NCBI GenBank assembly: GCA_903920145.1
Contig: CAIXKV010000069.1
Span: 5,509-69,508, forward strand
Direction of reading: 5' to 3'
From: an uncultured Rhodospirillales bacterium
GTDB taxonomy: Bacteria > Pseudomonadota > Alphaproteobacteria > Azospirillales > Azospirillaceae
DNA: 64,000 nucleotides
Part shown: in pieces, positions 20,941 to 38,678 of the stretch
Layout: each line of letters opens with the position of its first letter
Numbering within the stretch: position 1 is the stretch's first letter
The notes under the pieces: model-generated
Told to the model about the DNA's origin: nothing
Databases searched by the model: none
Seen by the model: only the letters and a program-made list of their open reading frames with translations
Position numbers and translations under genes: made by a program

Positions 20941-20958
20941 TCCCGCCCGATCCTCAAG

Positions 20959-22978: not shown

Positions 22979-25006
22979 ATGCGAAAGGCTACGAAGTGTC
23001 TCGGTGTCGCCATGCGCCGGGTGTTTCTGACGACGGCTGTTGTCATGTCGGTGGGGTCGATGGCTAAAGCCGCCGATATCCCATTGAGTAAGACGGAAGT
23101 CTTCGCAGAGAATGCCTTTGACGAAGATATCCGCACTGTCTTGCGTAAATTATTGGCAACCGATAGCCTCGCCGTGATTTTTCGTCCCGATGTCAAAGGC
23201 AGTGTGACCTACGATTTTACCAAAACACCGATTCCATTGCTTGGCGCCTTTAATAAGTTGATGGAAGAAAATGGCCTTGATTACGAATATAATGCCGACA
23301 CCAAAACTGTTACGATTCTGGTCAAAGGTCTGATCGAGACCACGTTCATTCCGCTCAAGAATAAAAATGTGACCGATGAGGCGATTAAAAGTGCCGCTCA
23401 TCATTTCGGTCTGGATCAAGAAGTTACCATTATTTATGACGCGCCCAGCAAAACGATCATGCTTAAAGGCAAGGCCGAGCGGGTTAAGGATCTCAGCGAT
23501 CTGATCGAGCGGTTGGAAACATCCGCCACCGAACGCGATAAGGCCGAGGCCGAGAACTTTGCGGCGGCTAGCTCGGCGGCCTTGTCCCAGGCCGAAGCCA
23601 TGAAGAGACAGGCCGAGGCCCAGCAGGCGGCCTATCGCCTGTCCCAAGAACAAAAAGAGCAAAATGACATTGATAGCATCCGGGTCGAAGTCATAAAGCT
23701 GCATTATGCCAGCGTTGGCCCGACCAAGGTGCAGTTTCAGGGTGAAAATGTCACCATTCCAGGGGTGATTGATACCTTGAATAATCTGCTTGGTGTGACC
23801 AATGCTAAAGCAGCCGCTCAAAATGAAACCGCGAAACCGAGTGCGTTTCCCACCTCATCGGTTCCGTCGTCGGAGCCCGGACATGGTGGCGGGACGACGG
23901 TCGACGAGAAATATCCGAGTGGTGCCGCCTCTCCGGGAGCCGCACAGCAGAGCAACCCCAGCGATTTCCACGGCACAATTTCCGCCGACGTCCGAACCAA
24001 TTCGGTGATTGTCCGGGGGACGCCTCGCGAAATCCAACAGGTTAAAGACCTCCTTCCCAAGCTTGATAAGCCGATGGAGCAAGTCGAGATCGAGGTCATT
24101 ATTGCCAATACCACCCAGGACTTTTCACGAAATCTGGGGTTGAGCCTGGGGAACGACACCGGATTGGTGGGGTCTGGAGCCGTTGGTGGCGCCTTTTCGA
24201 CGCTTCCGCCGAGCGTTGGCAGCTACTACACCACGCCGACCACGGCGGCGAGTACCGTCAACAACAACGTTTCGCCCTTGACGCTGGCGGGGACGACCAC
24301 CGGGGTTGGAAGTGTAGCCTCGCTGATCTTCCGAGGCTCCAATGCCACCCTGAACGCCCAGCTCAATGCGTTGGAGAGCAACAACCAGGGTCACATTGTG
24401 GACTCGCCTCGGGTGGTGACTATCGACAATGTGGCGGCCAAAGTCAGCCTGGACGGCACCACCTTCCTTGCCGTTCCGGCGGCGGCTAACGCTCCGGGCG
24501 GGTATATGACGGTTCCGGCGGGCACAACCCTGAAAATCACCCCCTCGGTCTTGCGGCGCGAGGATGTGGGGGGTGAAAACATGGTCCGCATGGTGATCGA
24601 AGCCGAAGCTACCGCCGTTGTCGCGCCGACCACGGCGACTGCCGGCCCCGGTCGCAATGGCGAGCAAATCCAGACCCAAGTGGTTATCCCCGATGGATCG
24701 ACCTTCATCATGGGCGGCTTGAGCCATATCGACCGAACCGAAAATTTGAATCAGGTTCCATTGCTGGGGGATATCCCGGTTGTGGGCGAGTTGTTTAAAA
24801 ACCGCGATACCAGCCGTGACTACAAGGACATCATGTTCTTCATCACGCCGAAAATCGTGCCCAAGGCCGCCCTCTATGCCAAAGATGTCGCCGAAAAGCG
24901 GTATCTCCAAGCGGAACGGGCGGAAATTGATCGGGTTGCCGATGGCGTTCGGAAGAAGAGCATGCTGCTGGACCTCGGCCATAAGTCCCTTCAGGACGAC
25001 GAATAA
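22979..25006 (+). CDS. secretin (PilQ/GspD/MshL class outer-membrane channel)
   Basis: Signal peptide, an N0-like domain, and a Glu/Ala-rich coiled segment. N3-to-secretin junction ISADVRTNSVIVRGTPREIQQVKDLLPKLD. C-terminal VPLLGDIPVVGELFKNRD...MFFITPKIV. Confidence 0.9.
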   Translation: MRKATKCLGVAMRRVFLTTAVVMSVGSMAKAADIPLSKTEVFAENAFDEDIRTVLRKLLATDSLAVIFRPDVKGSVTYDFTKTPIPLLGAFNKLMEENGLDYEYNADTKTVTILVKGLIETTFIPLKNKNVTDEAIKSAAHHFGLDQEVTIIYDAPSKTIMLKGKAERVKDLSDLIERLETSATERDKAEAENFAAASSAALSQAEAMKRQAEAQQAAYRLSQEQKEQNDIDSIRVEVIKLHYASVGPTKVQFQGENVTIPGVIDTLNNLLGVTNAKAAAQNETAKPSAFPTSSVPSSEPGHGGGTTVDEKYPSGAASPGAAQQSNPSDFHGTISADVRTNSVIVRGTPREIQQVKDLLPKLDKPMEQVEIEVIIANTTQDFSRNLGLSLGNDTGLVGSGAVGGAFSTLPPSVGSYYTTPTTAASTVNNNVSPLTLAGTTTGVGSVASLIFRGSNATLNAQLNALESNNQGHIVDSPRVVTIDNVAAKVSLDGTTFLAVPAAANAPGGYMTVPAGTTLKITPSVLRREDVGGENMVRMVIEAEATAVVAPTTATAGPGRNGEQIQTQVVIPDGSTFIMGGLSHIDRTENLNQVPLLGDIPVVGELFKNRDTSRDYKDIMFFITPKIVPKAALYAKDVAEKRYLQAERAEIDRVADGVRKKSMLLDLGHKSLQDDE

Positions 25007-25036
25007 GCGAGGGGATGAGACCAGGGAGGGGGAGTC

Positions 25037-25504
25037 ATGCTGCGGGTGATCACGTCGTTGAACTGGCTGATTGGATGTGTCGCCCTGGCCTTGGCGGCGG
25101 CTTACCCCTTCTATTATCAGGCCGGGGTGGCTGAGGCTAAAATGGCGGCCTCGGCGACCATGGATCAAATCGTTCAGGCGGAACGTCTAAAGGCGTTTGA
25201 GCCAAACGGTAGCGTTGTTTACTTCAGAATGAACCGGCAGGACATCATTCGGACCACTTTGCAGGTTCCCTTGGTGGGTGCGGCGGCTGATTTTACGTAT
25301 GATTCTTACTCGGATCACGATCATGCCCTCGTCGTTCGGGCCATGACCAGCGATGCCGCGTTGCGCAGAGGACGTCCACCGTTGCTGTATACTTACGCGG
25401 TGTCCGATGTGAACGGCTTGCCCAAGGAAGGGGGGCATGCCGAAGGAACCTGGGAACGATTGTCCGGCAAGTCCGTTGGTCTGCTGGCACTTGCGGGGTT
25501 GTAG
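25037..25504 (+). CDS. hypothetical membrane-anchored protein (pilin-shaped N-terminal helix but no prepilin cleavage motif)
   Basis: Strong RBS GGAGGGGGAG. N-terminal hydrophobic helix LIGCVALALAAAYPFYY followed by an amphipathic helix. No family recognised. Confidence 0.45.
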   Translation: MLRVITSLNWLIGCVALALAAAYPFYYQAGVAEAKMAASATMDQIVQAERLKAFEPNGSVVYFRMNRQDIIRTTLQVPLVGAAADFTYDSYSDHDHALVVRAMTSDAALRRGRPPLLYTYAVSDVNGLPKEGGHAEGTWERLSGKSVGLLALAGL

Positions 25505-25616
25505 CCGGGTTTTGTTGGAATGGTATCATCAGCGATGTCGGAGGAACGGCCCCCACCGTCGACCGTCGCTTCAAGTCATCGGCCAGGCCGGATCACGATT
25601 GCGCCGAACAGGAGGA

Positions 25617-26279
25617 ATGATGAAAGCGCGGACTCTTGGGGTTATCCTGACAGGTATGCTGGCTCTCTCCGCATGCAGCGTTTCCGAGCCGCCGACAGCC
25701 GCGCTCGGGACCACGCCGACTCTGCCAACCGCGCCCAAAGCCACAACCACGCTAGACAGCTTGGTTCTGAGCAAACCCCAATGGCGGGTTGGGGACGAAT
25801 GGCATTACAGCGACGGCTATGCAGTGCGCGTGAGCGAAATCACCGGCATTTTGGCAAAGTTCGAGCGGCTTGACGCGCCCGGTCAGTGGTTCGTCAACAA
25901 CGGCTTTTTCCGAGAGACGTCTCAGTCAGATGGCACGCCCCGGCAGGTGGTCTTCCGTTCCGAAAACCCGGACCCGTCCTTCTACACCCTGCCGTTGGGG
26001 CGGCCTCTGGTGTATGTCGAAGAATATCTGCGCGATAAAGACTTGATCCGTCACCAAACGTCATGGGTGGTGGAAAGCCGCGAGCGAATCACGGTGCCCG
26101 CTGGCACCTTTGATACCTTTGTCGTGGTGATACGCAAGCGTAGCCTGACCAGCGATTGGACCGCTTACGAACGTTGGTGGTACGCGCCTGCCGTAAAGAA
26201 TTACGTCCGCATGGAATACCGATATGGCGAGGAACCCGAAGGAGCGCGGGTTCTGATGAGCAGCAAGTTGGGGAATTGA
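25617..26279 (+). CDS. hypothetical lipoprotein
   Basis: AGGAGG RBS, MMKARTLGVILTGMLALSAC lipobox, and a beta-rich body. The ORF-track start at 25437 is upstream and overlaps the previous gene. Confidence 0.6.
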   Translation: MMKARTLGVILTGMLALSACSVSEPPTAALGTTPTLPTAPKATTTLDSLVLSKPQWRVGDEWHYSDGYAVRVSEITGILAKFERLDAPGQWFVNNGFFRETSQSDGTPRQVVFRSENPDPSFYTLPLGRPLVYVEEYLRDKDLIRHQTSWVVESRERITVPAGTFDTFVVVIRKRSLTSDWTAYERWWYAPAVKNYVRMEYRYGEEPEGARVLMSSKLGN

Positions 26280-26345
26280 TAGTCGCAGGGGTGGCTTTGG
26301 GGATTAAACCCGGTTTCGGCACTGTTTGAGGTCTGGGGTTATGAA

Positions 26346-27965
26346 ATGTCGGTGATGAACCAGACAAGAACCTTGGCAGCCGGAGCCGGGCGTTATTCGG
26401 ATTGGCGGCTCTTGGGCAAAGGGGGGACCGCCAATGTCTATCGGGTTCATGATAATGAACTGGATTATGATGTCGCGATTAAAATTCTCAAGCCGGAGAT
26501 TTTGACCAGCGCGGCCAATCTTGAGTTGATGAAGCAAAGCTTACGGACTGAAGTCCTAATTTCGCGTCGGCTTCGTCACCAAAATATTTGTGCCATTCAT
26601 GACCTTTATGACGGACCTGAAGGCTTTGGGACTGTCATGGATCTGATCGATGGGGTTGAGCTACGCGATTGGATGAATGAGCATTTCCATGATTTGCTGG
26701 ATACTGCCGAGTTAAGACTGGAACTATTGCGTAAAATTGCCGAGGCCTTGGCTTACGCCCATACCCTAATTGTTCATCGTGACTTGAAGCCGCAGAATAT
26801 CTTTCTTCGCAATGGCGATATTCGTCAGCCAGTGATTATGGATTTTGGATTTTCGGTCATCGGTGACAAGAGCGACCGAACCTCGATGCAGGCTTTTACC
26901 CCAAAATACATGGCCCCCGAACAATACGAAGACCCTCATAAAGTTGATCGACGAGCAGACCTTTTTGCACTGGGAATTTTGGCCTATGAACTTTTTACGG
27001 GACAGGTTCCACCCCACTCATTGAAAGATATTCTGAAGACCCGTAAGCCACCGCGCATTCCATTACACGAGATTGCGCCGCCTAGCGACCGGAATGCGGC
27101 GGTTCGTCCGGCTTTCGACCGAATTATTCTGCAATTAACGGCTTATGAACCGGAACGCCGGATTCAATCTGCCGACGAATTGGTTGTGGTTCTGGCAAAA
27201 TCCAAGGATCTGCTGTATCCGCCCGAAGACGTGAATAGTGGTGAAAGTCCGGCCCTGGGCTTCCGCTCGATGAATGCGGTTGAGGTACCGGGCGGTGAGT
27301 ATCTTTTGGGGGCACGGGCCGGTGCCAAGGGAACCAATGCCAACGAATTGCCGACTCGGCGCATCACCCTGACTCCCTTCAAGATCGATCGCATGCCCGT
27401 CACCAACCGCGAATATCTGGAGTATGCCGAAGGAACGGGACGGCGCAAACCGCCGCTGCATGATCATCCGGTGTTTGGAGCCCCCAATCATCCGGTGGTT
27501 GGCGTTACCTTCGATGAAGCCATGCAGTTTGCGCGATGGGCCGGCGGCATGTTGCCGTCCGAGGCCCAATGGGAATATGCCGCCCGCGCGGGGCAAAAAT
27601 TAATCGATTATCCCTGGGGAGACGACCCGCCGTCTCAAGTTCGCGCCAATATCAATAACATCTCTCGCACAACCAGTATTGTTGGCGCCTATCCTGAAGG
27701 TAGCAATTCACTGGAAATTTATGATATGTGTGGAAATGTTTGGGAGTGGTGCCTGGACGTTTATGAAGAAAAGTTTTATACAAATATTCAGCAAGGAACC
27801 TTAAATCCAGTTAATAATCCAAAAAATTCCAGTCCAAAATCCCTTCGCGTTCTGCGTGGGGGAAGTTTTCAGTCTTTTTCCGTGCAGGGTCGTTGCGCAT
27901 TTCGCTTTTTTGCCTCTTCCTTCGAATCCCGAAACGATATCGGGTTTCGTTTGATCTATAGCTAA
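26346..27965 (+). CDS. Hanks-type Ser/Thr protein kinase fused to a C-terminal FGE/SUMF1 (sulfatase-modifying-factor-like) domain; no TM segment seen
   Basis: Kinase motifs are intact: GKGGTANVY, VAIKILK, HRDLKPQNIF, DFGFS, YMAPEQ. C-terminal FGE-like motifs: MPVTNREYLEY, HPVVGVTFDEAMQFARWAG, LPSEAQWEYAARAG, GNVWEWCLD, RVLRGGSF, IGFRL. Confidence 0.85.
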   Translation: MSVMNQTRTLAAGAGRYSDWRLLGKGGTANVYRVHDNELDYDVAIKILKPEILTSAANLELMKQSLRTEVLISRRLRHQNICAIHDLYDGPEGFGTVMDLIDGVELRDWMNEHFHDLLDTAELRLELLRKIAEALAYAHTLIVHRDLKPQNIFLRNGDIRQPVIMDFGFSVIGDKSDRTSMQAFTPKYMAPEQYEDPHKVDRRADLFALGILAYELFTGQVPPHSLKDILKTRKPPRIPLHEIAPPSDRNAAVRPAFDRIILQLTAYEPERRIQSADELVVVLAKSKDLLYPPEDVNSGESPALGFRSMNAVEVPGGEYLLGARAGAKGTNANELPTRRITLTPFKIDRMPVTNREYLEYAEGTGRRKPPLHDHPVFGAPNHPVVGVTFDEAMQFARWAGGMLPSEAQWEYAARAGQKLIDYPWGDDPPSQVRANINNISRTTSIVGAYPEGSNSLEIYDMCGNVWEWCLDVYEEKFYTNIQQGTLNPVNNPKNSSPKSLRVLRGGSFQSFSVQGRCAFRFFASSFESRNDIGFRLIYS

Positions 27966-28007
27966 TGCTTTTTGAGCCAATCCCTACCGTCTAGTATCTC
28001 GAAACGG

Positions 28008-30482
28008 ATGTCGTGCATGACCATTCTCCCCTCTCAGGTTCCCGACATCCACCTCGCCATCATCCAAGCCGATGGAGAGGAGCGAGGTATTCTGCTGGAT
28101 CACCGCCGCGACCGCTATGTTATGGGGCGACGCGAGGCACAATTGGGAACATCGGTTGATATTCCACTGCCTGACCGTCATGTGTCGCGTCGACACTGCG
28201 AAATTACCGCTGATCGCGTGAATTACGGCTGGACGATTCGCGATCTTTTGAGTTCTAATGGCACCAGAATCAATGACGAGCTGATTTCTGACGTTCCAGT
28301 TCCTCTTTTGGACGGCCAAAAGATCACAGTCGGATTAACCTCCCTGACGGTTCGTTTTGACTATGAAAGCGCCGTAGCCGCCGGCGAGCAGGACTTGATG
28401 CCAGAACCCACCGGAACGGTGATCGAGAGCAGCGTCGCAGAGGGTACGGTGTTATTCGGCGCACCTGGGCAAGGGGGCGAAACCGTCCTTTTCGCGCCAC
28501 CCGCCTCGGCTGTTCTCCCAACGGAAGACCGTCGAGCAACGGACTCTTTTGCGCCAACGATGTTGGTAGACGAGGGTAACGATCAAACCATAGCAACCGC
28601 CTATAGGCCAACAGCGGCCTCAGAACCAGCCTTAAAGCCGACTACGGGCCGTGAAGCCACTATTACGATTACACGCAAGACTGCTGCATCGCCAACACCG
28701 ATGGCACGCCCCAGTAATACGCCTTCCAGTCGTGCCAACCGACGTCAGGAGTTGCAAGACGCAGGCTTTCGAGGCATTGCCCTGGATATTGCTGTGGATG
28801 TTTTCCGCGAAGAAGCGCGCTTATCGGCGCTCTGCCGACAGGCGGCGGAAACCGGCAAGACCTTCTTCCGGGTTTTAGCCAATGACCCGACCATTAAGGC
28901 CCATAAGGAAATTTATGAGTATGTGGCCAAATCGCTTAAAATACCGCTGGTTGACGATGAAAAATATATTATGGAGCAAGCTATTGAAGAAAAATGGCTG
29001 ACTTACGCTCATGCCGCTAATATTGGTGCAGTTTTGCTTCGAAATTCCGATACCGATGTGGCTCTAATTGCGACGATTGATCCTTATGATGTGATAATGT
29101 CAGACTGGATCGCGGCCAGCGCGAATGTTAAAATAGTTGAAAAGATTTTAGTTTTACCGACGGTGTTTCAATCAGCGCTTCAGCGCATGAAAAACCGGAC
29201 TGACGAAGATGATAGCAGTGCTGCGGTTCTGGTCATTAATCTTGATAGCGAAACAGAACGCGAAGTTCAGCTACGGGTGGAAAGCGTCGAGGTTCCCAAA
29301 ATTGTCAATTACTTCCTGCAAAAGTCATTTTTCGAAGGCGCTTCGGATATTCATATTGAACCTACTGAAGACTTCTTATTGGTTCGTAATCGCGTCGATG
29401 GGATTCTTCATGAATTAACGACACTTCCAGCATCAATGCATCCTGAAATTGTCTCTCGTGTTAAAATTCTTTCTGGAATGGATGTTGCTGAAAAACGGCG
29501 TCCACAAGATGGGCGCATTGGAACACTTATTCGTGAAAATGCTATTGATGTTCGTGTTTCATCTTATCCGACAATCTATGGTGAAAAGATCGTAATGCGC
29601 TTGCTTGACAAGAACGCATTGCGCCCATCGCCAGAACATCTTGGCATGATTTCCCGTGATCTTAGATTGCTTTATGACAAATTGGATGCACCGTTCGGGT
29701 TGGTGATGATCAGTGGACCGACAGGGTCGGGTAAAACCACCACATTATACTCGTGTCTCAGCTACATTGATAAAAAGACCAAAAACGTCCTGACAGTAGA
29801 AGATCCGGTTGAATACCGCCTGAAAGGCGTCCACCAGATGCAGGTCAATGAAAAAATTGGCCTGACTTTTGCTTCGGGTCTGCGCACTATTTTGCGCCAA
29901 GACCCGGATGTCATCATGGTTGGCGAGTGTCGCGATGGTGAAACGGCGGGTATGGCCATTCAGGCCGCCTTGACGGGTCATATTGTCTTTTCAACCATCC
30001 ACACCAACGATGCGGTCGGGGTGATTCCGCGCTTGATTGATATGGGCGTTGAGCCGTTTCTTGTGGCGAACTCGGTATCGCTCTGTATTGCGCAACGGCT
30101 GGTGCGTCGAATCTGTAGGCATTGCCAAACCCCGGAAGAGGGGCAATCGGTGCTGGAACGGCTGCATAACGATGCCATTTCTGATGAACGCTTGGCCGCC
30201 CTTGGTATTGTGGTTGATCCTGATTTGACGTATGTCACGGGTCGAGGATGTGTTCACTGTCGAAACACTGGCTATCAGGGCCGGCAGGCGGTGTTTGAGA
30301 TTTTCGAAATTGACCAAGATGCTCGCGCCGAGATTGTTTCCCCGACCTTTGATGCCAACGTGATGCGGCGTCGGGCCCGAGAACGGGGCATGACCACCTT
30401 GATTGGTCACGGATTGATGCTGATTGACGAAGGCATGACCACCCACTCTGAAGTCGTTCGCGTCCTGGGTGAGGCATACTAA
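28008..30482 (+). CDS. GspE/PilB-class secretion/pilus-extension ATPase with N-terminal FHA domain and a long Thr/Ser/Pro-rich linker
   Basis: FHA motifs: MGR...SRRH...SSNGTRIND. The linker is about 130 aa of low complexity. A T2SSE-N-like domain follows. Walker A SGPTGSGKTTTL, Walker B-like VIMVGECRD, and tetracysteine CRHC...CVHC. The ORF-track start at 27972 is TTG; the first ATG is at 28008. Confidence 0.9.
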   Translation: MSCMTILPSQVPDIHLAIIQADGEERGILLDHRRDRYVMGRREAQLGTSVDIPLPDRHVSRRHCEITADRVNYGWTIRDLLSSNGTRINDELISDVPVPLLDGQKITVGLTSLTVRFDYESAVAAGEQDLMPEPTGTVIESSVAEGTVLFGAPGQGGETVLFAPPASAVLPTEDRRATDSFAPTMLVDEGNDQTIATAYRPTAASEPALKPTTGREATITITRKTAASPTPMARPSNTPSSRANRRQELQDAGFRGIALDIAVDVFREEARLSALCRQAAETGKTFFRVLANDPTIKAHKEIYEYVAKSLKIPLVDDEKYIMEQAIEEKWLTYAHAANIGAVLLRNSDTDVALIATIDPYDVIMSDWIAASANVKIVEKILVLPTVFQSALQRMKNRTDEDDSSAAVLVINLDSETEREVQLRVESVEVPKIVNYFLQKSFFEGASDIHIEPTEDFLLVRNRVDGILHELTTLPASMHPEIVSRVKILSGMDVAEKRRPQDGRIGTLIRENAIDVRVSSYPTIYGEKIVMRLLDKNALRPSPEHLGMISRDLRLLYDKLDAPFGLVMISGPTGSGKTTTLYSCLSYIDKKTKNVLTVEDPVEYRLKGVHQMQVNEKIGLTFASGLRTILRQDPDVIMVGECRDGETAGMAIQAALTGHIVFSTIHTNDAVGVIPRLIDMGVEPFLVANSVSLCIAQRLVRRICRHCQTPEEGQSVLERLHNDAISDERLAALGIVVDPDLTYVTGRGCVHCRNTGYQGRQAVFEIFEIDQDARAEIVSPTFDANVMRRRARERGMTTLIGHGLMLIDEGMTTHSEVVRVLGEAY

Positions 30483-30483
30483 G

Positions 30484-31530: not shown

Positions 31531-31548
31531 ACGAAGGAACCCAAAGCC

Positions 31549-32289: not shown

Positions 32290-32297
32290 CCCCGGCC

Positions 32298-33071: not shown

Positions 33072-33808
33072 CATTATTAAATATAGCCCGTCATCGTGAA
33101 TCTGGGTTTACCTTGATTGAGCTAATGGTTGCCATGACCATTGGTATGATCGTGATTATGGCGGCAACTGAGTTGTTTCTTGATGCGGTTGGAGTTGCCA
33201 ACACCCTAGAACGTCAAGCCACACTGAATCGTCAAGCACGGGAAATGTATGATATTCTTTCATTGGGAGGTCATAGGATTGGAATCAACGTGACAAATTC
33301 GAATGCGAGCGTCGTTGATCCGCTTGGAAATTACGATGCGGACGTGAATTATCATTATATTTTTGGTCTTCGCGGGCGTTTTTATCAAACGTCTACAGGT
33401 AGGATGGGCTGGTCATTTCAGACGAGTCTAATGGAGGTCAGTGCATCTGGTGCGTTACTGTATAAGCTTGCGCTATACCCAACAAATAAAACGCCCACTC
33501 AAATAACAATACCTTCATATGTTATAATCGATAGCGATCAGATAACAGAGACAACATTTAACTGTAATGCGCAATACGATCCTCTTATTGAATGTGCATC
33601 GGACAGCACAACACCAACTATGTATGGATATTTCCGTTCCGACAGTTCTGCTCCTCCTTCTGGCCCGCATGCTGTTCAGAGTGTTGTTTTTGATTTATTT
33701 GATCCGGTCTATTATTCTCCCGCTCAGTTGGTCAATGAAGCCGAGGAGGATCGACGGACGGTTTATTGGACAGCGTATGCCTCTGAGATTGACAGGACTC
33801 CGCCATGA
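33068..33808 (+). CDS. minor prepilin-type protein (PilW/GspJ-like position)
   Basis: MTLLNIARHRESG|FTLIELMVAMTIGMIVI. Its start overlaps the upstream stop (ATGA). Confidence 0.75.
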   Translation: MTLLNIARHRESGFTLIELMVAMTIGMIVIMAATELFLDAVGVANTLERQATLNRQAREMYDILSLGGHRIGINVTNSNASVVDPLGNYDADVNYHYIFGLRGRFYQTSTGRMGWSFQTSLMEVSASGALLYKLALYPTNKTPTQITIPSYVIIDSDQITETTFNCNAQYDPLIECASDSTTPTMYGYFRSDSSAPPSGPHAVQSVVFDLFDPVYYSPAQLVNEAEEDRRTVYWTAYASEIDRTPP

Positions 33809-34773
33809 CTAAAATGGAACATCCTCAGCGCGGCGCTGTGTTGTTGGTCGTCATGCTGCTCATGGTGGTCTTGATGCTGATTGCTGCCGGGTTGAGCAAT
33901 TATTTTTTAACCTCTGAAGACCAAGCTGTTGAAAATCTTTTGATTGACGTTAGAACCTATTGGGCACAAATGGGTCACGTTTATTATGTCCTTAGCCGAA
34001 CTGGTGGCCAAGGCGTTTGTGGGAGTCTTGATAATAGTACTAATAATCAAAAATATTATTGCGGAACAACGTCAACATCCGCACCAACTGATGATGATTC
34101 TAATGGAACTTGCGATTCTAGCGGATCATGCGGTAAAATTAGCTCAGAATCTACCGCTTACGCGAAGTCAGATGTTTTTACCAATTCATATACTCCACCT
34201 TCTTTTACCGGACGATCATTAATTAATAATACTCCAGCTTCAAGTTTACAGAAATATTCAGTAGAATTAGATACTCTTGACAAACTGGCAAGCAGTTCTG
34301 CCCCCACTGTGATTGATCCGGGGTCAAGACGTTGGACTTTTCCACAAGATAATACTTATGGAGAATCCAATGTTACGACAGATTATTATATAACGTTACG
34401 ATCGGTTGTTAGAGATCGCAGAATGACGGACCAAAATGGTGCATTTGCATCACCGCCAAGTTATCCAGCAGACATTACGAGCAGCGCTCCGCAAAAACAC
34501 CCACAATTAAGAATGGATATTTCTGTTATTGATAGTGGAACTATGGTTTCTTCGCTTGGGCCGTCGATTAATGGTTTGAAAGACCGAGCCGACCGCCTGA
34601 CGATCGGGTTTGGTGTTACCGATAGCTATCTCTCTGACCCAGGTACTAATACATACACAAACAGAGGGTGCAATACACCATCGAATGTTACCTCATCATA
34701 TGAAGGCCAAGTTTGTATAGAATTCATCATGCGTAATGCTGATTTGCCTCTAACAAATTACATGACCCAGTAA
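33805..34773 (+). CDS. PilX/GspK-like minor component (hydrophobic N-terminus without a G|F cleavage site)
   Basis: QRGAVLLVVMLLMVVLMLIAAGL N-terminus, typical of PilX/GspK-type proteins. The body is Ser/Thr/Asn-rich. Its start overlaps the upstream stop. Confidence 0.45.
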   Translation: MTKMEHPQRGAVLLVVMLLMVVLMLIAAGLSNYFLTSEDQAVENLLIDVRTYWAQMGHVYYVLSRTGGQGVCGSLDNSTNNQKYYCGTTSTSAPTDDDSNGTCDSSGSCGKISSESTAYAKSDVFTNSYTPPSFTGRSLINNTPASSLQKYSVELDTLDKLASSSAPTVIDPGSRRWTFPQDNTYGESNVTTDYYITLRSVVRDRRMTDQNGAFASPPSYPADITSSAPQKHPQLRMDISVIDSGTMVSSLGPSINGLKDRADRLTIGFGVTDSYLSDPGTNTYTNRGCNTPSNVTSSYEGQVCIEFIMRNADLPLTNYMTQ

Positions 34774-34825
34774 ACCTAAAAACCAGCACAGACCACCCAC
34801 CCCCGACCCGACCGACGAGGATATC

Positions 34826-36835
34826 ATGTTTAAGTTGTTCAAGAAGCGTGAGGCGGAGGAGGCCAAGGCGGGCGAGGGGCGCTTTTTGGTTTATTTGCAT
34901 GTCGCCGATGACGGGTGGCGGGCGGCGATTGTTGACAAGCATCACGAACACGAAACCCGGATGATCGGCGACCAGGGCGAAGCGGCCAAGGTGCTGGCAG
35001 ATTTGCCCAAAGATCACGGGACCGAACAGGCGATTGAACAGATGTTTAAACTCGCCGGGGACGGTTTACGACAGCATGAATCCCAGCGGATTTCCGATAT
35101 TTGTATCGTGATCGGCGATCCTAGGGTGATGTATATCGACATGCTGCCCGATATTTTTTCGTCAGCATCGACCGCAACTTTGCATGAATACGGACGCGCT
35201 AATCTTCGTTGTCGCGGGGTCTCTTTTGGTCTTGCTAAATTCGGGCCGGTGGATCGCGGCCTAGCTAAGGCCAGCGGCGGCGTGATCGCCTTCATCGATG
35301 CGGCCCGGTTGGGCGCCTATCTGTCGCGGCTCGATCGGCTGGCACTCAAAGTGCGGGCCGTCACGCCGATTTCCGACATCATGCTTCGCCAAGCCCACAG
35401 CAAGCCGCATTCCGGCCCGGCGGTATCGCTTTATATTGGCGCCCTGTCCAGCATTCTGGTGTTGTCCAATCCGACCATTGGCGCCATCGTCCGGCGAGTT
35501 CTACCCTTCGGTGTCGGCGTCTTGGGGCGGTTGCTGGCGGAGGGCAGCGGGGTTTCGTATGATCAGGCCATGGGGTCTTTGGCCGAGCAGGACTTGATTT
35601 CGGAGTTGCGGATCGGCGGGGAAACCGATGGCTTTGACACCCTGACCAGTAGTCCAGCCGAACGCATTCTCGGCGGAGCGATCCGGAGCTTTTTGGCCGA
35701 TATTAACGCCTCTGTAGCCTTTTTCGAAGAACAGCGCTGCGCCGGTCGCCCGGTCTCCATGGATATTTACGGCGATCTTAGCCGAGTGCGCGGGCTAGAG
35801 CGGTTATTGCGGGAAAGCCTGTCTCAAGCTCCGGCTCCCCTGACCGTGACCTTCGAGACGCATTCGCTTGTCGATCTCATTCAAGCTTTACCCACCGAAG
35901 CCCCGCTGAATCTGTTGTCCGAGGCCACTGGCGATTTGCGGATTGGCGCCGTCACCTACACCTTCCAAAATCAACAGTTCCGTCCATCCGAAGAGGTTCG
36001 GCGCGAAGTCGCCGCACGCGATCAAGCCAAACCTCAGCATCGCCATGCCAGCAAAACAACTCGAGCCCGCCGGGGTGCGTCGGAAGCGGCCGCCAAGCCG
36101 TCTTTGTTGGCCCAGTTGCGCGCTCGTCTGAACGGACAAACCCAAGGCGGGAGCGAAGAAGACGCCGCCGTTCGCCGTATGGATCAACAGGGATTCGCAG
36201 TATTGGGGCTGTTGGTGGTCGGTGTGGGCTATCTCTTATTTAATATGAGCAGTGATGCCCATAATAAATATAATAATCAAATCGCCGCTTTTGATCTTGC
36301 CATGGCCGACAATAGCCAACGTCATCAGGCTGTCTCCAGCGGTGGGATTCAGTATCATGCTGCCGATGATGTCGATAAAGTCTTATGGACCGAAAAAATT
36401 ATTTCGTTATCAAATCATTTAACCAGTGAAATTTGGTTAACTGATCTTTATTTAACAACAGAAACCAGAACAATCGATAAAGTTGCGCTTAGTACTAAGA
36501 AGTTAGTTATGGAAGGGGCTGTATTACCCTCAACCGATGGCCATATCCAGAAAATTGCCGAGTATATTGATGCCTTACAAAATGATAAAAGCCAGTTTAT
36601 GAGCGATTTCCGAGATATTACCTTTGAAGGACTATCGATTGATACCAGTGAATCTGATCAAGTGGTCCGTTTCACGATCGAGGCTTGGTATGATGAATCC
36701 AAACGGCAAGAGATTGTCAGCACCGCTGCCGCCGCCAATGGAACCGGCGGTATCGATGCCATGAAACAAGCGACAGAGCAACATAACCAGCAGCTCCAAA
36801 AAATTCCAGGCATGGCCCCGGCTGGAGCCCACTAA
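34826..36835 (+). CDS. fused PilM-like (actin-like ATPase fold) - TM - PilN-like assembly protein (MshI-like architecture)
   Basis: Cytoplasmic part with SLYIGALSSILVL...LPFGVGVLGRLLAEGSGVSYDQAMG (PilM-like), a charged linker, and TM GFAVLGLLVVGVGYLLF. The periplasmic part has EIWLTDLYL...LVMEGAVL...VRFTIEAWY (PilN-like). Confidence 0.5.
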   Translation: MFKLFKKREAEEAKAGEGRFLVYLHVADDGWRAAIVDKHHEHETRMIGDQGEAAKVLADLPKDHGTEQAIEQMFKLAGDGLRQHESQRISDICIVIGDPRVMYIDMLPDIFSSASTATLHEYGRANLRCRGVSFGLAKFGPVDRGLAKASGGVIAFIDAARLGAYLSRLDRLALKVRAVTPISDIMLRQAHSKPHSGPAVSLYIGALSSILVLSNPTIGAIVRRVLPFGVGVLGRLLAEGSGVSYDQAMGSLAEQDLISELRIGGETDGFDTLTSSPAERILGGAIRSFLADINASVAFFEEQRCAGRPVSMDIYGDLSRVRGLERLLRESLSQAPAPLTVTFETHSLVDLIQALPTEAPLNLLSEATGDLRIGAVTYTFQNQQFRPSEEVRREVAARDQAKPQHRHASKTTRARRGASEAAAKPSLLAQLRARLNGQTQGGSEEDAAVRRMDQQGFAVLGLLVVGVGYLLFNMSSDAHNKYNNQIAAFDLAMADNSQRHQAVSSGGIQYHAADDVDKVLWTEKIISLSNHLTSEIWLTDLYLTTETRTIDKVALSTKKLVMEGAVLPSTDGHIQKIAEYIDALQNDKSQFMSDFRDITFEGLSIDTSESDQVVRFTIEAWYDESKRQEIVSTAAAANGTGGIDAMKQATEQHNQQLQKIPGMAPAGAH

Positions 36836-36869
36836 ATCCGCGCGCTCTTGATCGGTTTTGAGGTGATTT

Positions 36870-37685
36870 ATGGACGCTTTTATTCGCAAATACCAATCCT
36901 TCATTGTCTCTCTGATCTTTGCATTGGTGGGTATTGCCGCTCTGTTATATTCCGCCGTGATCAGCCCGGCAACGGTGGCACAAGCTGATACGATGGCGCT
37001 GACGGCCGTCATCAAACGAGACAGCCAAGTTTTGGCCTTGATCCAAGCCAAAATGGCCGAAGATGTCAAGAGCGGCGATGATCAGGTGATTCATAGTCTG
37101 CCGGCTTTCCTGAAACGGATCAATGCCATTGCTCATGAGACCAATGTTATTGTTAATGAATTGGTCCCGTCAAAAGATCAAAATATTAAATTTACTATTA
37201 AGATTACCACAGATTTCTATACTTTCTTAAAATTTATCATGCGCCTGGAGTCCTTGGATGTGGCTATTAACGATATGCAAATCCATCCCTTTGATAGCAC
37301 CAAGAAAACGCCAATTCATGCAATCGAATTCACAATTACGCCTCGCCATGATGGCAAAGAGCTTGAAAGTTCCCGTATCGCAGCGTTGCGTGAAGCCGCC
37401 GAAGCGCCAGACCGGCGCAATCCGTTCCAACGCTTCACATATATCAATAAGGCGGTGACGACCGAAATCGATCTGACATGGATTTATAAAATGTCAGGCA
37501 TTGGGCGAATTGGTGACGAGCAAATCGCGACCATCGATAACAAAGATTATCGCAAAGGAGATTTGCTCGAGAATATGACAATCACAGCGGTTCTCAATGA
37601 TCGTGTTCAGCTTGAACGGAAAACAGATCATGGAACAGATCGCTATGTCCTCCGATTCCGTAATTCTGGAATCAAAAAACCTTGA
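36870..37685 (+). CDS. fused PilO-like / PilP-like assembly protein
   Basis: N-terminal TM, a coiled segment, and a ferredoxin-like FTIKITTDFYTFLKFIMRLESLDVAINDMQI (PilO/GspM-like). C-terminal beta segment GIGRIGDEQIATIDNKDYRKGDLL...VQLER (PilP-like). Confidence 0.4.
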   Translation: MDAFIRKYQSFIVSLIFALVGIAALLYSAVISPATVAQADTMALTAVIKRDSQVLALIQAKMAEDVKSGDDQVIHSLPAFLKRINAIAHETNVIVNELVPSKDQNIKFTIKITTDFYTFLKFIMRLESLDVAINDMQIHPFDSTKKTPIHAIEFTITPRHDGKELESSRIAALREAAEAPDRRNPFQRFTYINKAVTTEIDLTWIYKMSGIGRIGDEQIATIDNKDYRKGDLLENMTITAVLNDRVQLERKTDHGTDRYVLRFRNSGIKKP

Positions 37686-37711
37686 AAATAAGATCATTTG
37701 GGGTGCGTGGC

Positions 37712-38593
37712 ATGAACATAAGCAAGACACTTCTGACCATTCCGGCAGCTTTAGCCCTGTGGGTGTGCTTTTCGGTGCCGGCTAAAGCCGATTACTATGA
37801 TGATGCTTTACTTACGTATCAGCATGGTGAATATCTTGATGCCTTTGTCATGTTCGAAAAGCTGGCCACGCAAGGTGATCCGCGTGCCCAGTTCTGGATC
37901 GGCACCATGTGGTACGAAGGCAAGGGCAAGCCACAAAATTACCGGGAAGCTTATCGTTGGTATCTGCGTTCTGCCTATTTAGGGAATGCCAACAGTCAAA
38001 ATAATCTTGGCCTGATTTATGAAAAAGGCCAAATTCAGCCAGCCAATCCGGTGGTTGCTTATGCTTGGTTTTCTCTGGCGGCAGCCCATAACGACGACGA
38101 AACCAACACGGTTGCGCACGATAACCTGAATCGTCTGACCGATAGCCTTAAGGCAGAACACGAAAATGAAATCATTGAAGGCCAAGCTTTAGCCCAGGAA
38201 TACGCCGCGCGCATCAATACTGAAAAGCAGGCCCAAAGAAAGATCGATCTGGCCGCAGTCTCGGCGCCACGTCTGCCGCCCACCCCGTCCCCCGGTGTTG
38301 CCGAAGCCGGAAGACATCCGGTAACATTAACCCCGGTTCTGCGGCGAGGTTTCGGCGAAATCTACAAGGTACAGATCGGATTGTTTGGGCAGGCCCAGAA
38401 TATCAAGGGCATGCGCGCCGATCTGGCCAAGAAGGGCTATCGATTTGAAGACAAGGTGATTGATGTTCAGGGGAACAGCTACCATCGTTTCCGTATTGGC
38501 CCTTATACTTCGCTTCAGAGTGCGCAAGCAGCCAAGCAAAAAGTTGATCGCCTGTTTAAGCTCCAGAGTGCTGTGATTCCATTGCTGAGGTAG
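37712..38593 (+). CDS. secreted Sel1-repeat protein with C-terminal SPOR (peptidoglycan-binding) domain
   Basis: Signal peptide. Sel1 repeats GDPRAQFWIGTMWYEGKGKPQNYREAYRWYLRSAYLGNANSQNNLGLIYEKG. C-terminal SPOR-like YKVQIGLFGQAQNIKGMRADLAKKGY...YHRFRIGPYTSLQSAQAAKQKV. Confidence 0.75.
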   Translation: MNISKTLLTIPAALALWVCFSVPAKADYYDDALLTYQHGEYLDAFVMFEKLATQGDPRAQFWIGTMWYEGKGKPQNYREAYRWYLRSAYLGNANSQNNLGLIYEKGQIQPANPVVAYAWFSLAAAHNDDETNTVAHDNLNRLTDSLKAEHENEIIEGQALAQEYAARINTEKQAQRKIDLAAVSAPRLPPTPSPGVAEAGRHPVTLTPVLRRGFGEIYKVQIGLFGQAQNIKGMRADLAKKGYRFEDKVIDVQGNSYHRFRIGPYTSLQSAQAAKQKVDRLFKLQSAVIPLLR

Positions 38594-38610
38594 AGTGATT
38601 TGTGGACATA

Positions 38611-38644
38611 CCCGCAAGAAGGTCTCGCCTTCTTGCGGGTTTTT
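38611..38644 (+). terminator. rho-independent terminator closing the pilus-like operon
   Basis: CCCGCAAGAAGG - tctcg - CCTTCTTGCGGG forms a perfect 12-bp stem followed by TTTTT. Confidence 0.8.
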
Positions 38645-38678
38645 CGAGGTGTAATGTAGTCTATTGAGTCGGTACGCT

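What the first reader, a model, noticed from the sequence alone, without database searches (positions are those of the whole stretch)
22979..38644. Compact, co-directional T4P/T2SS-like machine with fused alignment-complex genes and no retraction ATPase
Thirteen same-strand genes with short gaps or ATGA overlaps (33068/33071 and 33805/33808) end at a perfect 12-bp-stem terminator.

The parts list is complete for a fibre-extrusion machine: secretin, extension ATPase, platform protein, one large prepilin, two minor prepilins, and a PilX/GspK-like protein.

The layout is unusual in several ways:
- PilM and PilN appear fused in one 669-aa protein, and PilO and PilP in one 271-aa protein.
- The secretin is first and is followed by a pilin-shaped membrane protein and a lipoprotein of unknown family.
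- A Sel1-SPOR protein closes the operon, a possible peptidoglycan anchor analogous in role to FimV/TsaP.
- There is no PilT/PilU, and no GspC/L/M.

This does not match the canonical T4aP, MSHA, Tad or T2SS gene sets as I know them. MSHA is the nearest, through its fused MshI.
Basis: partly seen in the sequence, partly recalled or inferred. Interest (0 to 1): 0.65.

Follow-up and report, generated by a model that had tools for sequence, protein, structure and literature searches.

The report
Kinase-gated type IV filament machine
This operon encodes a complete pilus or secretion nanomachine of the type IV pilus / type II secretion superfamily, from a rare and apparently undescribed lineage that carries its own Ser/Thr kinase and a phosphothreonine-reading FHA domain on its motor ATPase, which suggests the motor is switched on by phosphorylation.

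Summary
Thirteen co-directional genes (22979-38593, +) with the stated ATGA overlaps end at a strong terminator and encode a type IV filament (TFF) machine.

- Gene 4 is a Hanks-type Ser/Thr kinase fused to an FGE-sulfatase-like domain.
- The PilB/GspE-type ATPase carries an N-terminal FHA domain.
- A prepilin peptidase lies just upstream (21614-22522).

The 669-aa protein is a PilM-PilN fusion (profile, fold and Pfam evidence). The 271-aa protein is weakly GspM/PilO-like, with a small C-terminal domain that gives only sub-threshold GspC/GspB/CdsD_C-type Pfam hits.

The same gene set, kinase included, recurs in Rhodospirillales, cultured Azospirillum rugosum, Magnetococcales and Gammaproteobacteria MAGs. 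In one locus the kinase is fused directly to the ATPase.

No NCBIfam equivalog for T2SS, T4aP, MSH or Tad reaches its cutoff. The ATPase family is monophyletic and about as far from PilB and GspE (43-49% identity) as those are from each other.

Best reading: a distinct TFF lineage whose extension motor is gated by kinase-to-FHA phospho-signalling, probably building a surface pilus. I found no paper describing it. Verdict: new variant of a known kind, moderately interesting.

The parts
21614..22522 (+). Prepilin peptidase (PilD/GspO type). The likely ATG start is 21698.
   Evidence: Pfam A24_N_bact 2.6e-31 and Peptidase_A24 3.6e-24. The same gene precedes the secretin in Azospirillum rugosum L014 and lies nearby on the opposite strand in L018.
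22523..22978 (+). AT-rich intergenic region (43.6% GC). Presumed promoter and regulatory region of the operon.
   Evidence: Sequence and GC content. The promoter role is inferred. No strong consensus promoter was called.
22979..25006 (+). g1: outer-membrane secretin (675 aa) with a signal peptide.
   Evidence: Secretin 2.6e-34 and Secretin_N 7.6e-19. NCBIfam scores versus cutoffs: SctC 201/238, PilQ 182/284, GspD 170/351, MshL 69/250. All are below cutoff.
25037..25504 (+). g2: 155-aa membrane-anchored protein of unknown family. It is pilin-shaped but has no prepilin cleavage motif. It always follows the secretin.
   Evidence: One N-terminal TM segment. Conserved next to the secretin in 9 loci. 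The family profile gives only a weak hit to a PilA N-terminus (8TJ2, E = 0.026).
25620..26279 (+). g3: lipoprotein (lipobox LSAC), DUF3108-like. Candidate secretin-associated or pilotin-like factor (inferred).
   Evidence: DUF3108_like 2.8e-4 here, and the same family is recorded in relatives. The family profile hits PDB 4FVS 'putative lipoprotein' at 1.2e-4. Present in all secretin-containing loci.
26346..27965 (+). g4: cytoplasmic Hanks-type Ser/Thr kinase (residues 18-274) fused to an FGE-sulfatase-like domain (311-537).
   Evidence: Pkinase 3.1e-38 and FGE-sulfatase 4.6e-50. No TM segment. Catalytic residues K46, E69, H144-R145-D146, N151, D166-F167-G168 and P191-E192 are invariant across 10 loci with 43-86% identity.
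28017..30482 (+). g5: extension-type motor ATPase. Domain order: FHA domain (49-121 of the ORF from 27972; 34-106 from the 28017 start), a ~200-residue S/T/P-rich linker, a weak MshEN/N1 domain, then the PilB/GspE-type ATPase core with a CxxC...CxxC zinc site.
   Evidence: T2SSE 8.9e-120, FHA 1.5e-14, MshEN 1.3e-3. GspE 495 bits (cutoff 630) and PilB 483 bits (cutoff 676). FHA residues R38 and S57 are invariant; G37, R58, H60 and N81 are nearly so. Walker A and all four Cys are invariant in 18 relatives.
30484..31530 (+). g6: inner-membrane platform protein (PilC/GspF).
   Evidence: T2SSF 4.2e-52 with two repeats. GspF 276 bits (cutoff 424) and PilC 271 bits (cutoff 700).
31549..32289 (+). g7: large major prepilin (246 aa), cleavage motif G|FTLIELMVV.
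   Evidence: N_methyl 2.3e-6. Only the N-terminal helix matches known pilin models. It is 54-56% identical in close relatives, where the platform protein is 85-93% identical.
32298..33071 (+). g8: minor prepilin.
   Evidence: N_methyl 6.9e-8. 41-43% identical in close relatives. 42% GC.
33068..33808 (+). g9: minor prepilin. ATGA overlap with g8.
   Evidence: N_methyl 7.1e-10. 38-41% identical in close relatives.
33805..34773 (+). g10: GspK/PilX-like tip pilin (QRG-hydrophobic N-terminus, no E5). ATGA overlap with g9.
   Evidence: Weak NCBIfam T2SS_GspK hit on residues 8-59 (E = 0.0036). One N-terminal TM segment. Conserved position after the minor pilins in all loci.
34826..36835 (+). g11: PilM-PilN fusion. 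Layout: cytoplasmic actin-like PilM domain (~20-400), basic linker, TM segment 456-474, coiled helix, periplasmic ferredoxin-like domain (~536-637).
   Evidence: 57-sequence profile against PDB: PilM 2YCH 2e-15, 3JC8 1e-6, 5EOX 3e-6. AlphaFold2 pLDDT 84.7. Foldseek top hits are PilM 3JC8, 5EOU and 2YCH, then FtsA. Pfam on family members: PilM_2 in 7 of 57, PilN in 2 of 57, T2SSL in 0.
36870..37685 (+). g12: bitopic protein. N-terminal half is GspM/PilO-like. The C-terminal ~50 residues form a small domain with sub-threshold GspC/GspB/CdsD_C-type Pfam hits; calling it PilP-like is my inference.
   Evidence: T2SSM in 5 of 12 members (best 6e-6); PilO in 1 of 12. CdsD_C in 5 of 12, Y4YQ_C in 3, T2SSB in 2, T2SSC in 1. 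All are below the gathering cutoffs. TM segment 12-30.
37712..38593 (+). g13: periplasmic Sel1-repeat plus SPOR (peptidoglycan-binding) protein. An alternative TTG start is at 37682.
   Evidence: Sel1 7.4e-15 and SPOR 7.9e-10. Signal peptide. Relatives carry Sel1-SLT, SLT, or an ExeA-like AAA_22 plus PG_binding_1 protein instead.
38610..38645 (+). Intrinsic terminator closing the operon.
   Evidence: 14-bp stem followed by UUUUU, -26.8 kcal/mol, z = -4.6.

Best explanation
The locus encodes a complete, envelope-spanning type IV filament machine. It belongs to a distinct lineage within the PilB/GspE branch of the superfamily, the branch that also holds T4aP, T2SS and MSH.

Parts and roles:
- The upstream prepilin peptidase processes four pilins: one large major pilin, two minor pilins and a GspK/PilX-like tip subunit.
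- A PilC/GspF platform and a zinc-binding PilB/GspE-type hexameric ATPase polymerise the pilins.
- A PilM-PilN fusion and a PilO/GspM-like protein with a small C-terminal domain (its GspC/PilP-like identity is inferred) link the cytoplasmic motor to the secretin.
- A Sel1-SPOR protein ties the assembly to peptidoglycan.

Distinctive feature: a built-in phospho-switch. The cytoplasmic Hanks kinase has an FGE-sulfatase-like C-terminal domain that probably acts as the sensor or docking module. The kinase phosphorylates a threonine on a machine component. Candidates are the S/T/P-rich linker of the ATPase itself, the basic cytoplasmic linker of PilM-PilN, or the kinase's own autophosphorylation sites. 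The FHA domain on the ATPase binds that phosphothreonine, which recruits or activates the motor at the platform. The logic resembles PpkA-Fha1 gating of the Pseudomonas H1-T6SS.

The product is more likely a surface-exposed pilus than a periplasmic pseudopilus.

Shown: gene content, domain identities, conservation, kinase-ATPase linkage. Inferred: the phosphorylation target, the direction of regulation, and the nature of the fibre.
For: Machine identity:
- Pfam/NCBIfam domain calls.
- PilM-PilN evidence.
- Membrane topologies.

Kinase and FHA belong to the machine:
- The kinase-FGE gene lies directly upstream of the ATPase in all eleven other intact loci that cover that position. These are the window's own contigs, Rhodospirillales L008 and L006, Azospirillum rugosum L014, Magnetococcales L016, Gammaproteobacteria L010-L012, L018 and L019.
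- This holds even though gene order is permuted in the gammaproteobacterial loci.
- Kinase catalytic residues are invariant. FHA phosphothreonine-binding residues are invariant or nearly so.
- In L015 the kinase domain is fused directly to the ATPase N-terminus in place of FHA (Pkinase + MshEN + T2SSE, 943 aa). This is a Rosetta-stone link.
- Gammaproteobacterial loci L010 and L011 end with a PP2C-like phosphatase gene (weak).

Distinct lineage:
- All T2SS, T4aP, MSH and Tad equivalog models score below cutoff.
- The ATPase family is monophyletic in 200 of 200 NJ bootstraps. It is 43-49% identical to Geobacter PilB and Vibrio/E. coli GspE, which are 47-49% identical to each other.
- The PilM-PilN protein family has only 183 representatives among 1.84 billion.

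Pilus rather than pseudopilus:
- Pilins g7-g10 are 38-56% identical in relatives whose other components are 65-93% identical.
- The minor-pilin block has the lowest GC, 42-44%.
- The major pilin is 246 aa.
- The cytoplasmic scaffold is PilM-type, not GspL-type.
Against: - No experiment exists. The phosphorylation target is unknown.
- No phosphatase gene is present in this operon or window.
- Some ATPase relatives next to the same kinase lack a Pfam-detectable FHA domain (L018, L019). The kinase-to-FHA route therefore cannot be the only coupling.
- The FGE-like domain has no demonstrated sensing role.
- Single-operon organisation, no PilT in the window, weak GspM/GspC/GspB/GspK-type hits and a marginally higher GspE than PilB HMM score all fit a T2SS-like secretion role equally well.
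- The ATPase tree uses few references, NJ only, and no MshE sequence.
- The PilO-PilP assignment rests on sub-threshold hits.
Confidence: 0.6

Rival explanations
1. It is a divergent type II secretion system. A short periplasmic pseudopilus pushes folded substrates through the secretin. The kinase/FHA module gates secretion rather than pilus display.
For: - Single operon containing the secretin, with an adjacent prepilin peptidase, and no PilT in the window.
- The GspE model is the top ATPase hit by a small margin, 495 against 483 bits.
- g12 gives T2SSM, T2SSC and T2SSB sub-threshold hits.
- g10 has a GspK-like N-terminus.
- An esterase / PHB-depolymerase gene lies next to the locus in L014 and L015, as a possible substrate.
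Against: - No GspG, GspD, GspE or GspF equivalog reaches its cutoff.
- The scaffold is PilM-type, with 0 of 57 members hitting T2SSL.
- The major pilin is large and evolves fast, unlike the conserved ~140-aa GspG.
- There is no PDZ-bearing GspC.
- No conserved candidate substrate gene is found across loci.
- In the NJ tree the family joined the GspE clade in only 9 of 200 bootstraps.
Confidence: 0.25
2. It is an ordinary member of the MSHA pilus class, and looks odd only because it comes from uncultured Alphaproteobacteria.
For: - Single-locus organisation and a fused PilM/PilN-like protein recall MshI (my recollection, not tested).
- A weak MshEN domain is present in the ATPase.
- The Magnetococcales relative has an ExeA/MshM-like AAA_22 protein.
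Against: - The secretin scores 69 bits on MshL (cutoff 250), lower than on PilQ, GspD or SctC.
- No MshM or MshN is present in this operon.
- A prepilin peptidase is adjacent, whereas MSH loci lack one (PMC6668835).
- A kinase and FHA domain are not part of the 20-profile MSH model described in PMC6668835.
- MshEN scores 19.2 bits, below the 23.1 cutoff.
Confidence: 0.07
3. The kinase and FHA domain are unrelated passengers, for example serving the nearby T6SS-like genes, and do not regulate this machine.
For: The window also holds an FHA protein (50662-52050) and TssK/L/M-like genes (57570-63801). T6SS threonine-phosphorylation pathways are well known.
Against: - The kinase is inside the operon, immediately upstream of the ATPase, in all eleven other intact loci that cover that position, across three proteobacterial classes. 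Their flanks differ and lack T6SS genes.
- The FHA domain is part of the ATPase polypeptide.
- One locus has a direct kinase-ATPase fusion.
- Catalytic and phosphothreonine-binding residues are conserved.
Confidence: 0.05

Closest known systems
Type IVa pilus machine (PilA, PilB, PilC, PilD, PilMNOP, PilQ; e.g. Myxococcus xanthus, Pseudomonas aeruginosa)
   Same: - PilB-like zinc-binding extension ATPase, PilC platform, secretin and prepilin peptidase.
- PilM-type actin-like cytoplasmic scaffold (sequence profile and fold).
- PilN/PilO-type bitopic partners.
- Major pilin plus minor pilins, including a PilX/GspK-like subunit.
   Different: - All genes are in one operon.
- PilM and PilN are fused. 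PilO carries a small C-terminal domain (PilP-like identity inferred) in one polypeptide.
- No PilT/PilU in the window. No AMIN domains in the secretin.
- All PilB, PilQ and PilC equivalog models are below cutoff.
- A Hanks kinase gene and an FHA domain on the motor are core components.
- A 2024 review of PilB regulation, covering c-di-GMP/PilZ/FimX and two-component systems, does not mention FHA domains or Hanks kinases (PMC11656802).
Type II secretion system (GspC-O)
   Same: - Single operon with secretin, GspE-like ATPase, GspF-like platform and GspK-like pilin.
- A bitopic protein with a cytoplasmic actin-like domain plus a periplasmic ferredoxin-like domain, which is the GspL architecture.
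- A GspM-like partner and an adjacent prepilin peptidase.
   Different: - The scaffold domain is PilM-type, not T2SSL.
- No GspG/H/I/J equivalogs. The major pilin is 246 aa and fast-evolving.
- No PDZ-bearing GspC.
- All equivalog scores are below cutoff.
- A kinase/FHA module is present.
MSHA pilus (MshA-Q, Vibrio)
   Same: Single-locus pilus system, no dedicated retraction ATPase in the locus, fused PilM/N-like MshI (from memory), and an ATPase with an MshEN-type N-domain.
   Different: - The secretin is not MshL-like (69 bits against a cutoff of 250).
- No MshM or MshN.
- A prepilin peptidase is adjacent, whereas MSH loci lack one (PMC6668835).
- FHA replaces the c-di-GMP-binding N-terminal input.
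Threonine phosphorylation pathway of the Pseudomonas aeruginosa H1-T6SS (PpkA kinase, PppA phosphatase, Fha1). Established knowledge; cited in PMC8460266.
   Same: A Hanks kinase and an FHA reader are encoded inside a secretion-machine locus, giving post-translational gating of assembly. A PP2C-like gene is present in some relatives (L010, L011).
   Different: - The machine is of a different kind (TFF, not a contractile T6SS).
- The FHA domain is fused to the motor ATPase itself.
- The kinase is cytoplasmic with an FGE-like domain. As I recall, not tested here, PpkA is instead membrane-spanning with a periplasmic sensor domain.
FHA-fused Tad ATPases (Myxococcus KilF; class III CpaF, mostly Betaproteobacteria)
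   Same: An N-terminal FHA domain joined through a disordered linker to a TFF-superfamily motor ATPase (PMC8460266, PMC12019362).
   Different: Those are TadA/CpaF-type ATPases in Tad/Flp systems. Here the motor is PilB/GspE-type: the TadA-family model scores 53 bits (cutoff 373) against 495 for GspE. It also has a dedicated kinase gene next to it.

Membership tests
Type II secretion system | GspE, GspD and GspF equivalogs (NCBIfam TIGR02533, TIGR02517, TIGR02120) at or above trusted cutoff | tested here: not met
   495 bits against cutoff 630, 170 against 351, 276 against 424.
Type II secretion system | Small conserved major pseudopilin GspG plus GspH/I/J/K | tested here: not met
   GspG 28 bits (cutoff 88.85) and GspH 31 bits (cutoff 80), matching the N-terminal helix only. 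GspK weak, 16.9 bits (cutoff 130)..
Type II secretion system | GspL-type (T2SSL) cytoplasmic domain and GspM | tested here: inconclusive
   The architecture is GspL-like. The domain is PilM-type: 0 of 57 members hit T2SSL and 7 hit PilM_2. g12 gives sub-threshold T2SSM hits in 5 of 12 members.
Type II secretion system | Secretes folded periplasmic substrates | not testable with these tools
   No conserved candidate substrate gene was found across loci.
Type IVa pilus | PilB, PilQ and PilC equivalogs at or above cutoff | tested here: not met
   483 bits against cutoff 676, 182 against 284, 271 against 700.
Type IVa pilus | PilM-PilN-PilO-PilP alignment subcomplex | tested here: met
   PilM by sequence profile and fold. 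PilN by Pfam in 2 of 57 members plus topology. PilO/PilP-like only weakly. The components are present as two fusion proteins rather than four separate ones.
Type IVa pilus | Dedicated retraction ATPase PilT | tested here: not met
   No second T2SSE-family gene in the 64-kb window. The rest of the genome is not available, so a distant pilT cannot be excluded.
MSHA pilus | MshL-type secretin | tested here: not met
   TIGR02519 scores 69 bits (cutoff 250).
MSHA pilus | MshM (AAA ATPase), mandatory in the TXSScan model, and MshN (accessory) | tested here: not met
   None of the 13 genes has an AAA_22/ExeA-type or MshN-like TPR protein. The model definition is from PMC6668835.
MSHA pilus | Locus lacks a prepilin peptidase | tested here: not met
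   A Peptidase_A24 gene lies 456 bp upstream on the same strand.
MSHA pilus | ATPase groups with MshE in a phylogeny | not tested
MshEN scores only 19.2 bits (cutoff 23.1).
Tad/Flp pilus | TadA/CpaF-type ATPase, TadB/C platform, Flp pilin | tested here: not met
   The TadA-family model scores 53 bits (cutoff 373). The platform is a two-repeat T2SSF of GspF/PilC type. The pilins are 246-257 aa with G|FTLIE.
Type IV filament superfamily (generic) | Secretion ATPase, polytopic platform, class III signal-peptide pilins, prepilin peptidase (plus a secretin in diderms) | tested here: met
   All five components are present and contiguous.
Kinase/FHA-gated machine (analogy to the T6SS threonine phosphorylation pathway) | Catalytically competent Hanks kinase and phosphothreonine-competent FHA domain encoded with the machine and co-conserved | tested here: met
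   Catalytic motifs and FHA R/S/H/N residues are conserved. The kinase is adjacent in all eleven other intact loci that cover that position, and one locus has a kinase-ATPase fusion.
Kinase/FHA-gated machine (analogy to the T6SS threonine phosphorylation pathway) | Phosphorylation actually controls assembly | not testable with these tools
   Needs genetics and phosphoproteomics.

The most novel reading that the evidence does not exclude
This is a previously unrecognised, monophyletic class of type IV filament machine, at the same rank as T2SS, T4aP and MSH. Its defining trait is obligatory gating of the PilB/GspE-type motor by a dedicated Hanks kinase through an FHA reader or direct fusion. 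That would make it a signal-triggered 'firing' pilus or secretion device in Alphaproteobacteria, Magnetococcales and Gammaproteobacteria, with new accessory families (g2, the g3 lipoprotein) at the secretin.
Probability: 0.4. Interest if true: 0.75.

Novelty: new variant of a known kind. Interest (0 to 1): 0.6.

Why it matters
Known control of PilB/GspE-type motors, as reviewed in PMC11656802, works through c-di-GMP, PilZ/FimX-type adaptors and two-component systems.

A lineage in which a Hanks kinase and an FHA reader are hard-wired into the machine would add Ser/Thr phosphorylation as a direct switch for type IV filament assembly. This parallels the T6SS threonine phosphorylation pathway and the FHA-bearing Tad/Kil motors.

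The locus also offers natural PilM-PilN and PilO-plus-C-terminal-domain fusions that fix the stoichiometry and topology of the alignment complex, which is useful for structural work.

Because the same system is present in a cultured bacterium (Azospirillum rugosum, assembly GCA_017876155.1), the hypothesis can be tested directly. It would also give TXSScan-type classifiers a definable new model for some of the many 'generic' TFF systems left unassigned (PMC6668835).

Tried and rejected
- AlphaFold2 of g11 with only 4 close sequences gave an unusable model (pLDDT 43.7). It was repeated with 57 sequences (pLDDT 84.7).
- Single-sequence and 4-sequence profile searches of g11 and g12 against PDB sequences found nothing.
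- hhalign of the g11 and g12 family profiles against single E. coli GspL, GspM and GspC sequences was uninformative, with probability below 3%. The g12 profile against the g11 C-terminal profile gave only a weak but topologically congruent match (E = 0.0067, probability 5.7%).
- L009 first looked like a natural variant without FHA or kinase. It is cut by a DDE transposase directly upstream of a truncated ATPase, so it was rejected as evidence.
- A long (21-aa) leader on g7 suggested type IVb-like pilins. Leader length varies from 3 to about 25 residues among orthologues, and all have G|F...E5, so this was dropped.
- Rfam found no RNA family in the window.
- tblastn of g11 against 72,556 plasmids found no match.
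- No PP2C phosphatase was found in the window.
- Six full-text literature searches found no description of an FHA-bearing PilB/GspE with a cognate kinase. The library holds only open-access papers, so prior description cannot be excluded.
- MacSyFinder/TXSScan could not be run. NCBIfam equivalog cutoffs were used as a proxy.

Full report
**Observation**

The ORF map shows thirteen consecutive + strand genes from 22979 to 38593.
- Gaps range from -4 to 115 bp.
- The two ATGA overlaps at 33068/33071 and 33805/33808 are exactly as stated.
- Downstream, ACCCGCAAGAAGG-TCTCG-CCTTCTTGCGGGT followed by TTTTT (about 38610-38645) folds into a 14-bp stem. It gives -26.8 kcal/mol and z = -4.6, and none of 200 shuffles folds as well.
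- The next gene is on the opposite strand.

Gene-caller coordinates on identical metagenomic contigs refine several starts: g3 25620, g5 28017, g6 30484, g8 32298.

**Anatomy** (Pfam and NCBIfam; topology)

- g1 is a secretin.
- g2 (155 aa) has one N-terminal TM helix and no known family.
- g3 is a lipoprotein with a weak DUF3108-like match.
- g4 is a cytoplasmic Hanks-type Ser/Thr kinase (Pkinase 3e-38) fused to an FGE-sulfatase-like domain (5e-50).
- g5 has an FHA domain (1.5e-14), a ~200-residue S/T/P-rich linker, a weak MshEN/N1 domain, and a PilB/GspE-type ATPase core (T2SSE 9e-120). The core has Walker motifs and the CxxC...CxxC zinc site typical of extension ATPases.
- g6 is the PilC/GspF platform.
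- g7, g8 and g9 are prepilins with G|FTLIE motifs.
- g10 has a GspK/PilX-like N-terminus.
- g11 (669 aa) and g12 (271 aa) had no significant single-sequence hits.
- g13 is Sel1 plus SPOR.

The gene 456 bp upstream on the same strand (21614-22522) is a prepilin peptidase. The parts list is therefore complete only when that gene is included.

**The two fusion proteins**

g11:
- It is rare. A word-indexed search of 5.8 billion proteins found 4 clusters. An exhaustive HMMER search of 1.84 billion representatives found 183.
- A 57-sequence family profile hits solved PilM proteins: Thermus 2YCH at 2e-15, Myxococcus at 1e-6, Pseudomonas at 3e-6.
- With that alignment AlphaFold2 gives a confident model (pLDDT 84.7). 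Its best Foldseek matches are PilM (3JC8, 5EOU, 2YCH), followed by FtsA and MreB.
- After the TM helix (456-474) the model has a long helix and an alpha-beta-beta-alpha-beta-beta-type ferredoxin-like domain.
- Individual family members hit Pfam PilM_2 (7 of 57), PilN (2 of 57) and never T2SSL.

The PilM-PilN fusion is well supported.

g12:
- Twelve orthologues give only sub-threshold hits. T2SSM hits 5 of 12 (best 6e-6) and PilO 1 of 12 on the N-terminal half.
- CdsD_C, Y4YQ_C, T2SSB and T2SSC hit the last ~50 residues.
- A PilO/GspM-like module plus a small C-terminal domain of the GspC/PilP kind is plausible but not proven.

**Comparative genomics**

The same gene set recurs in:
- close Rhodospirillales relatives (L006, L008)
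- the cultured Azospirillum rugosum (L014)
- Magnetococcales (L016)
- several Gammaproteobacteria MAGs (L010-L013, L018, L019), where the order is permuted but the content is the same

The kinase-FGE gene sits immediately upstream of the ATPase in all eleven other intact loci that cover that position. This includes two loci whose ATPase lacks a Pfam-detectable FHA domain. In L015 the kinase domain is fused directly to the ATPase (Pkinase-MshEN-T2SSE, 943 aa).

Conservation of functional residues:
- Kinase catalytic residues are invariant across 10 loci.
- The FHA phosphothreonine-binding residues are invariant or nearly so across 18 ATPases.

Other variation among loci:
- L010 and L011 end with a PP2C-like gene.
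- The last position of the operon varies but is always peptidoglycan-directed: Sel1-SPOR here, Sel1-SLT or SLT elsewhere, and an ExeA-like AAA_22 plus PG_binding_1 protein in Magnetococcales.
- One apparent variant without FHA or kinase (L009) is simply disrupted by a transposase.

**Classification**

No NCBIfam equivalog reaches its cutoff:

| Model | Score (bits) | Cutoff |
|---|---|---|
| GspE | 495 | 630 |
| PilB | 483 | 676 |
| GspD | 170 | 351 |
| PilQ | 182 | 284 |
| MshL | 69 | 250 |
| GspF | 276 | 424 |
| PilC | 271 | 700 |
| GspG | 28 | 89 |
| TadA family | 53 | 373 |

I built a small NJ analysis of the ATPase core (369 columns). References were transcribed from PDB alignments, plus E. 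coli GspE, HofB and YggR.
- The kinase-associated ATPases are monophyletic in 200 of 200 bootstraps.
- They are 68-97% identical to each other.
- They are 43-49% identical to Geobacter PilB and to Vibrio and E. coli GspE. PilB and GspE are 47-49% identical to each other.
- The sister group is unresolved: PilB in 71 of 200 bootstraps, GspE in 9 of 200.

This is a limited test, with few references and no MshE. It is consistent with a lineage as deep as the T2SS/T4aP split.

MSH is not the nearest class by any test I could run. According to Denise et al. [quoted passage not shown] Neither is true here.

**Mechanism**

- Shown: a full TFF machine with a co-conserved, catalytically intact kinase and a phosphothreonine-competent FHA domain on the motor.
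- Inferred: the kinase phosphorylates a threonine on the ATPase linker, the PilM-PilN cytoplasmic linker, or itself. FHA binding then recruits or activates the hexameric motor on the PilM/PilC platform. This is analogous to PpkA-Fha1 in the H1-T6SS.

I favour a surface pilus over a pseudopilus for four reasons:
- The four pilins are by far the fastest-evolving components, at 38-56% identity against 65-93% for the rest in the same relatives.
- The minor-pilin block has the lowest GC.
- The major pilin is large.
- The scaffold is PilM-type.

A T2SS-like secretion role remains a serious rival, at about 0.25.

**Novelty**

FHA-fused motors are known in the Tad class: KilF (PMC8460266) and class III CpaF (PMC12019362). 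Kinase/FHA gating is known for T6SS.

Six full-text searches found no description of a PilB/GspE-type motor with an FHA domain and a cognate kinase. A 2024 review of PilB regulation has no occurrence of 'FHA' and uses 'kinase' only for histidine and sensor kinases. Database names for these proteins are generic, such as 'ATPase, T2SS/T4P/T4SS family', or wrong, such as 'TadA'.

I rate it a new variant of a known kind, with a 0.4 chance that it deserves to be a separate TFF class.

**Limits**

- There is no experimental data.
- The library searched holds open-access papers only.
- TXSScan was not run.
- The genome outside the 64-kb window is unknown, so a distant pilT or phosphatase cannot be excluded.
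- g2, g3 and g12 remain structurally uncharacterised.

Noticed in passing
window 57570-63801 (-), 50662-52050 (+): T6SS membrane-complex-like genes lie about 12-25 kb downstream of the pilus operon: IcmF-related_N/TssM (1364 aa), DotU/TssL and VasE/TssK. A separate FHA-domain protein (462 aa) lies nearby. This is a second phosphothreonine reader near the kinase.
   Followed up: partly
window 43875-50414 (-), 55693-57510 (-): Three tandem, unusually large (699, 722 and 761 aa) TolC/OEP-family paralogs lie next to an ABC exporter with a transmembrane domain. This may be a type I secretion or efflux cluster.
   Followed up: no
window 1-12000: A low-GC block (45-49%, against 57-63% at 44-64 kb) contains a plasmid RepA_C protein (9698-10678), a Sel1-repeat protein (8701-9708), a sigma-54 activator (5916-7199) and a HlyD-like protein. 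It may be an integrated element or a chromid-like replicon.
   Followed up: no
window 38679-41075 (-): A 798-aa polytopic membrane protein with no Pfam hit lies directly after the terminator on the opposite strand, next to an NTP_transferase gene. dTDP-rhamnose genes (18965-21555) flank the other side. The pilus operon therefore sits among surface-polysaccharide genes.
   Followed up: partly
window 15813-17810 (-): A fused cytochrome b / cytochrome c1 gene (665 aa) with the Rieske subunit gene upstream (17824-18396), and CcmF at 12861-14870.
   Followed up: no
L015 1282-4113: A relative in which the Ser/Thr kinase domain is fused directly to the MshEN-T2SSE ATPase (943 aa). It has no FHA domain, no FGE domain and no separate kinase gene.
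   Followed up: yes
L016 14348-16977: The Magnetococcales version of the operon carries an ExeA/GspA-like AAA_22 plus PG_binding_1 protein and a Staphylococcal-nuclease-domain protein between the platform gene and the pilins.
   Followed up: partly
L010 15285-16244; L011 15117-16061: The gammaproteobacterial versions end with a PP2C-like phosphatase gene (Pfam E = 7e-4, with DGxGG and SDGLW motifs). No counterpart exists in the window.
   Followed up: partly
L018 2557-3465 (-): In a locus whose ATPase lacks a detectable FHA domain, a divergently transcribed gene encodes FHA plus a guanylate/adenylate cyclase domain. The phospho-signal may be read in trans there.
   Followed up: no
L009 1826-3457 (-): A DDE transposase is inserted directly upstream of a truncated (503-aa) ATPase. 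This copy of the system is disrupted.
   Followed up: yes
window 32298-34773: The minor-pilin block (g8-g10) has 42-44% GC, against 50-59% for most other genes of the operon, and is the most divergent part between relatives. This suggests cassette-like replacement or diversifying selection.
   Followed up: partly
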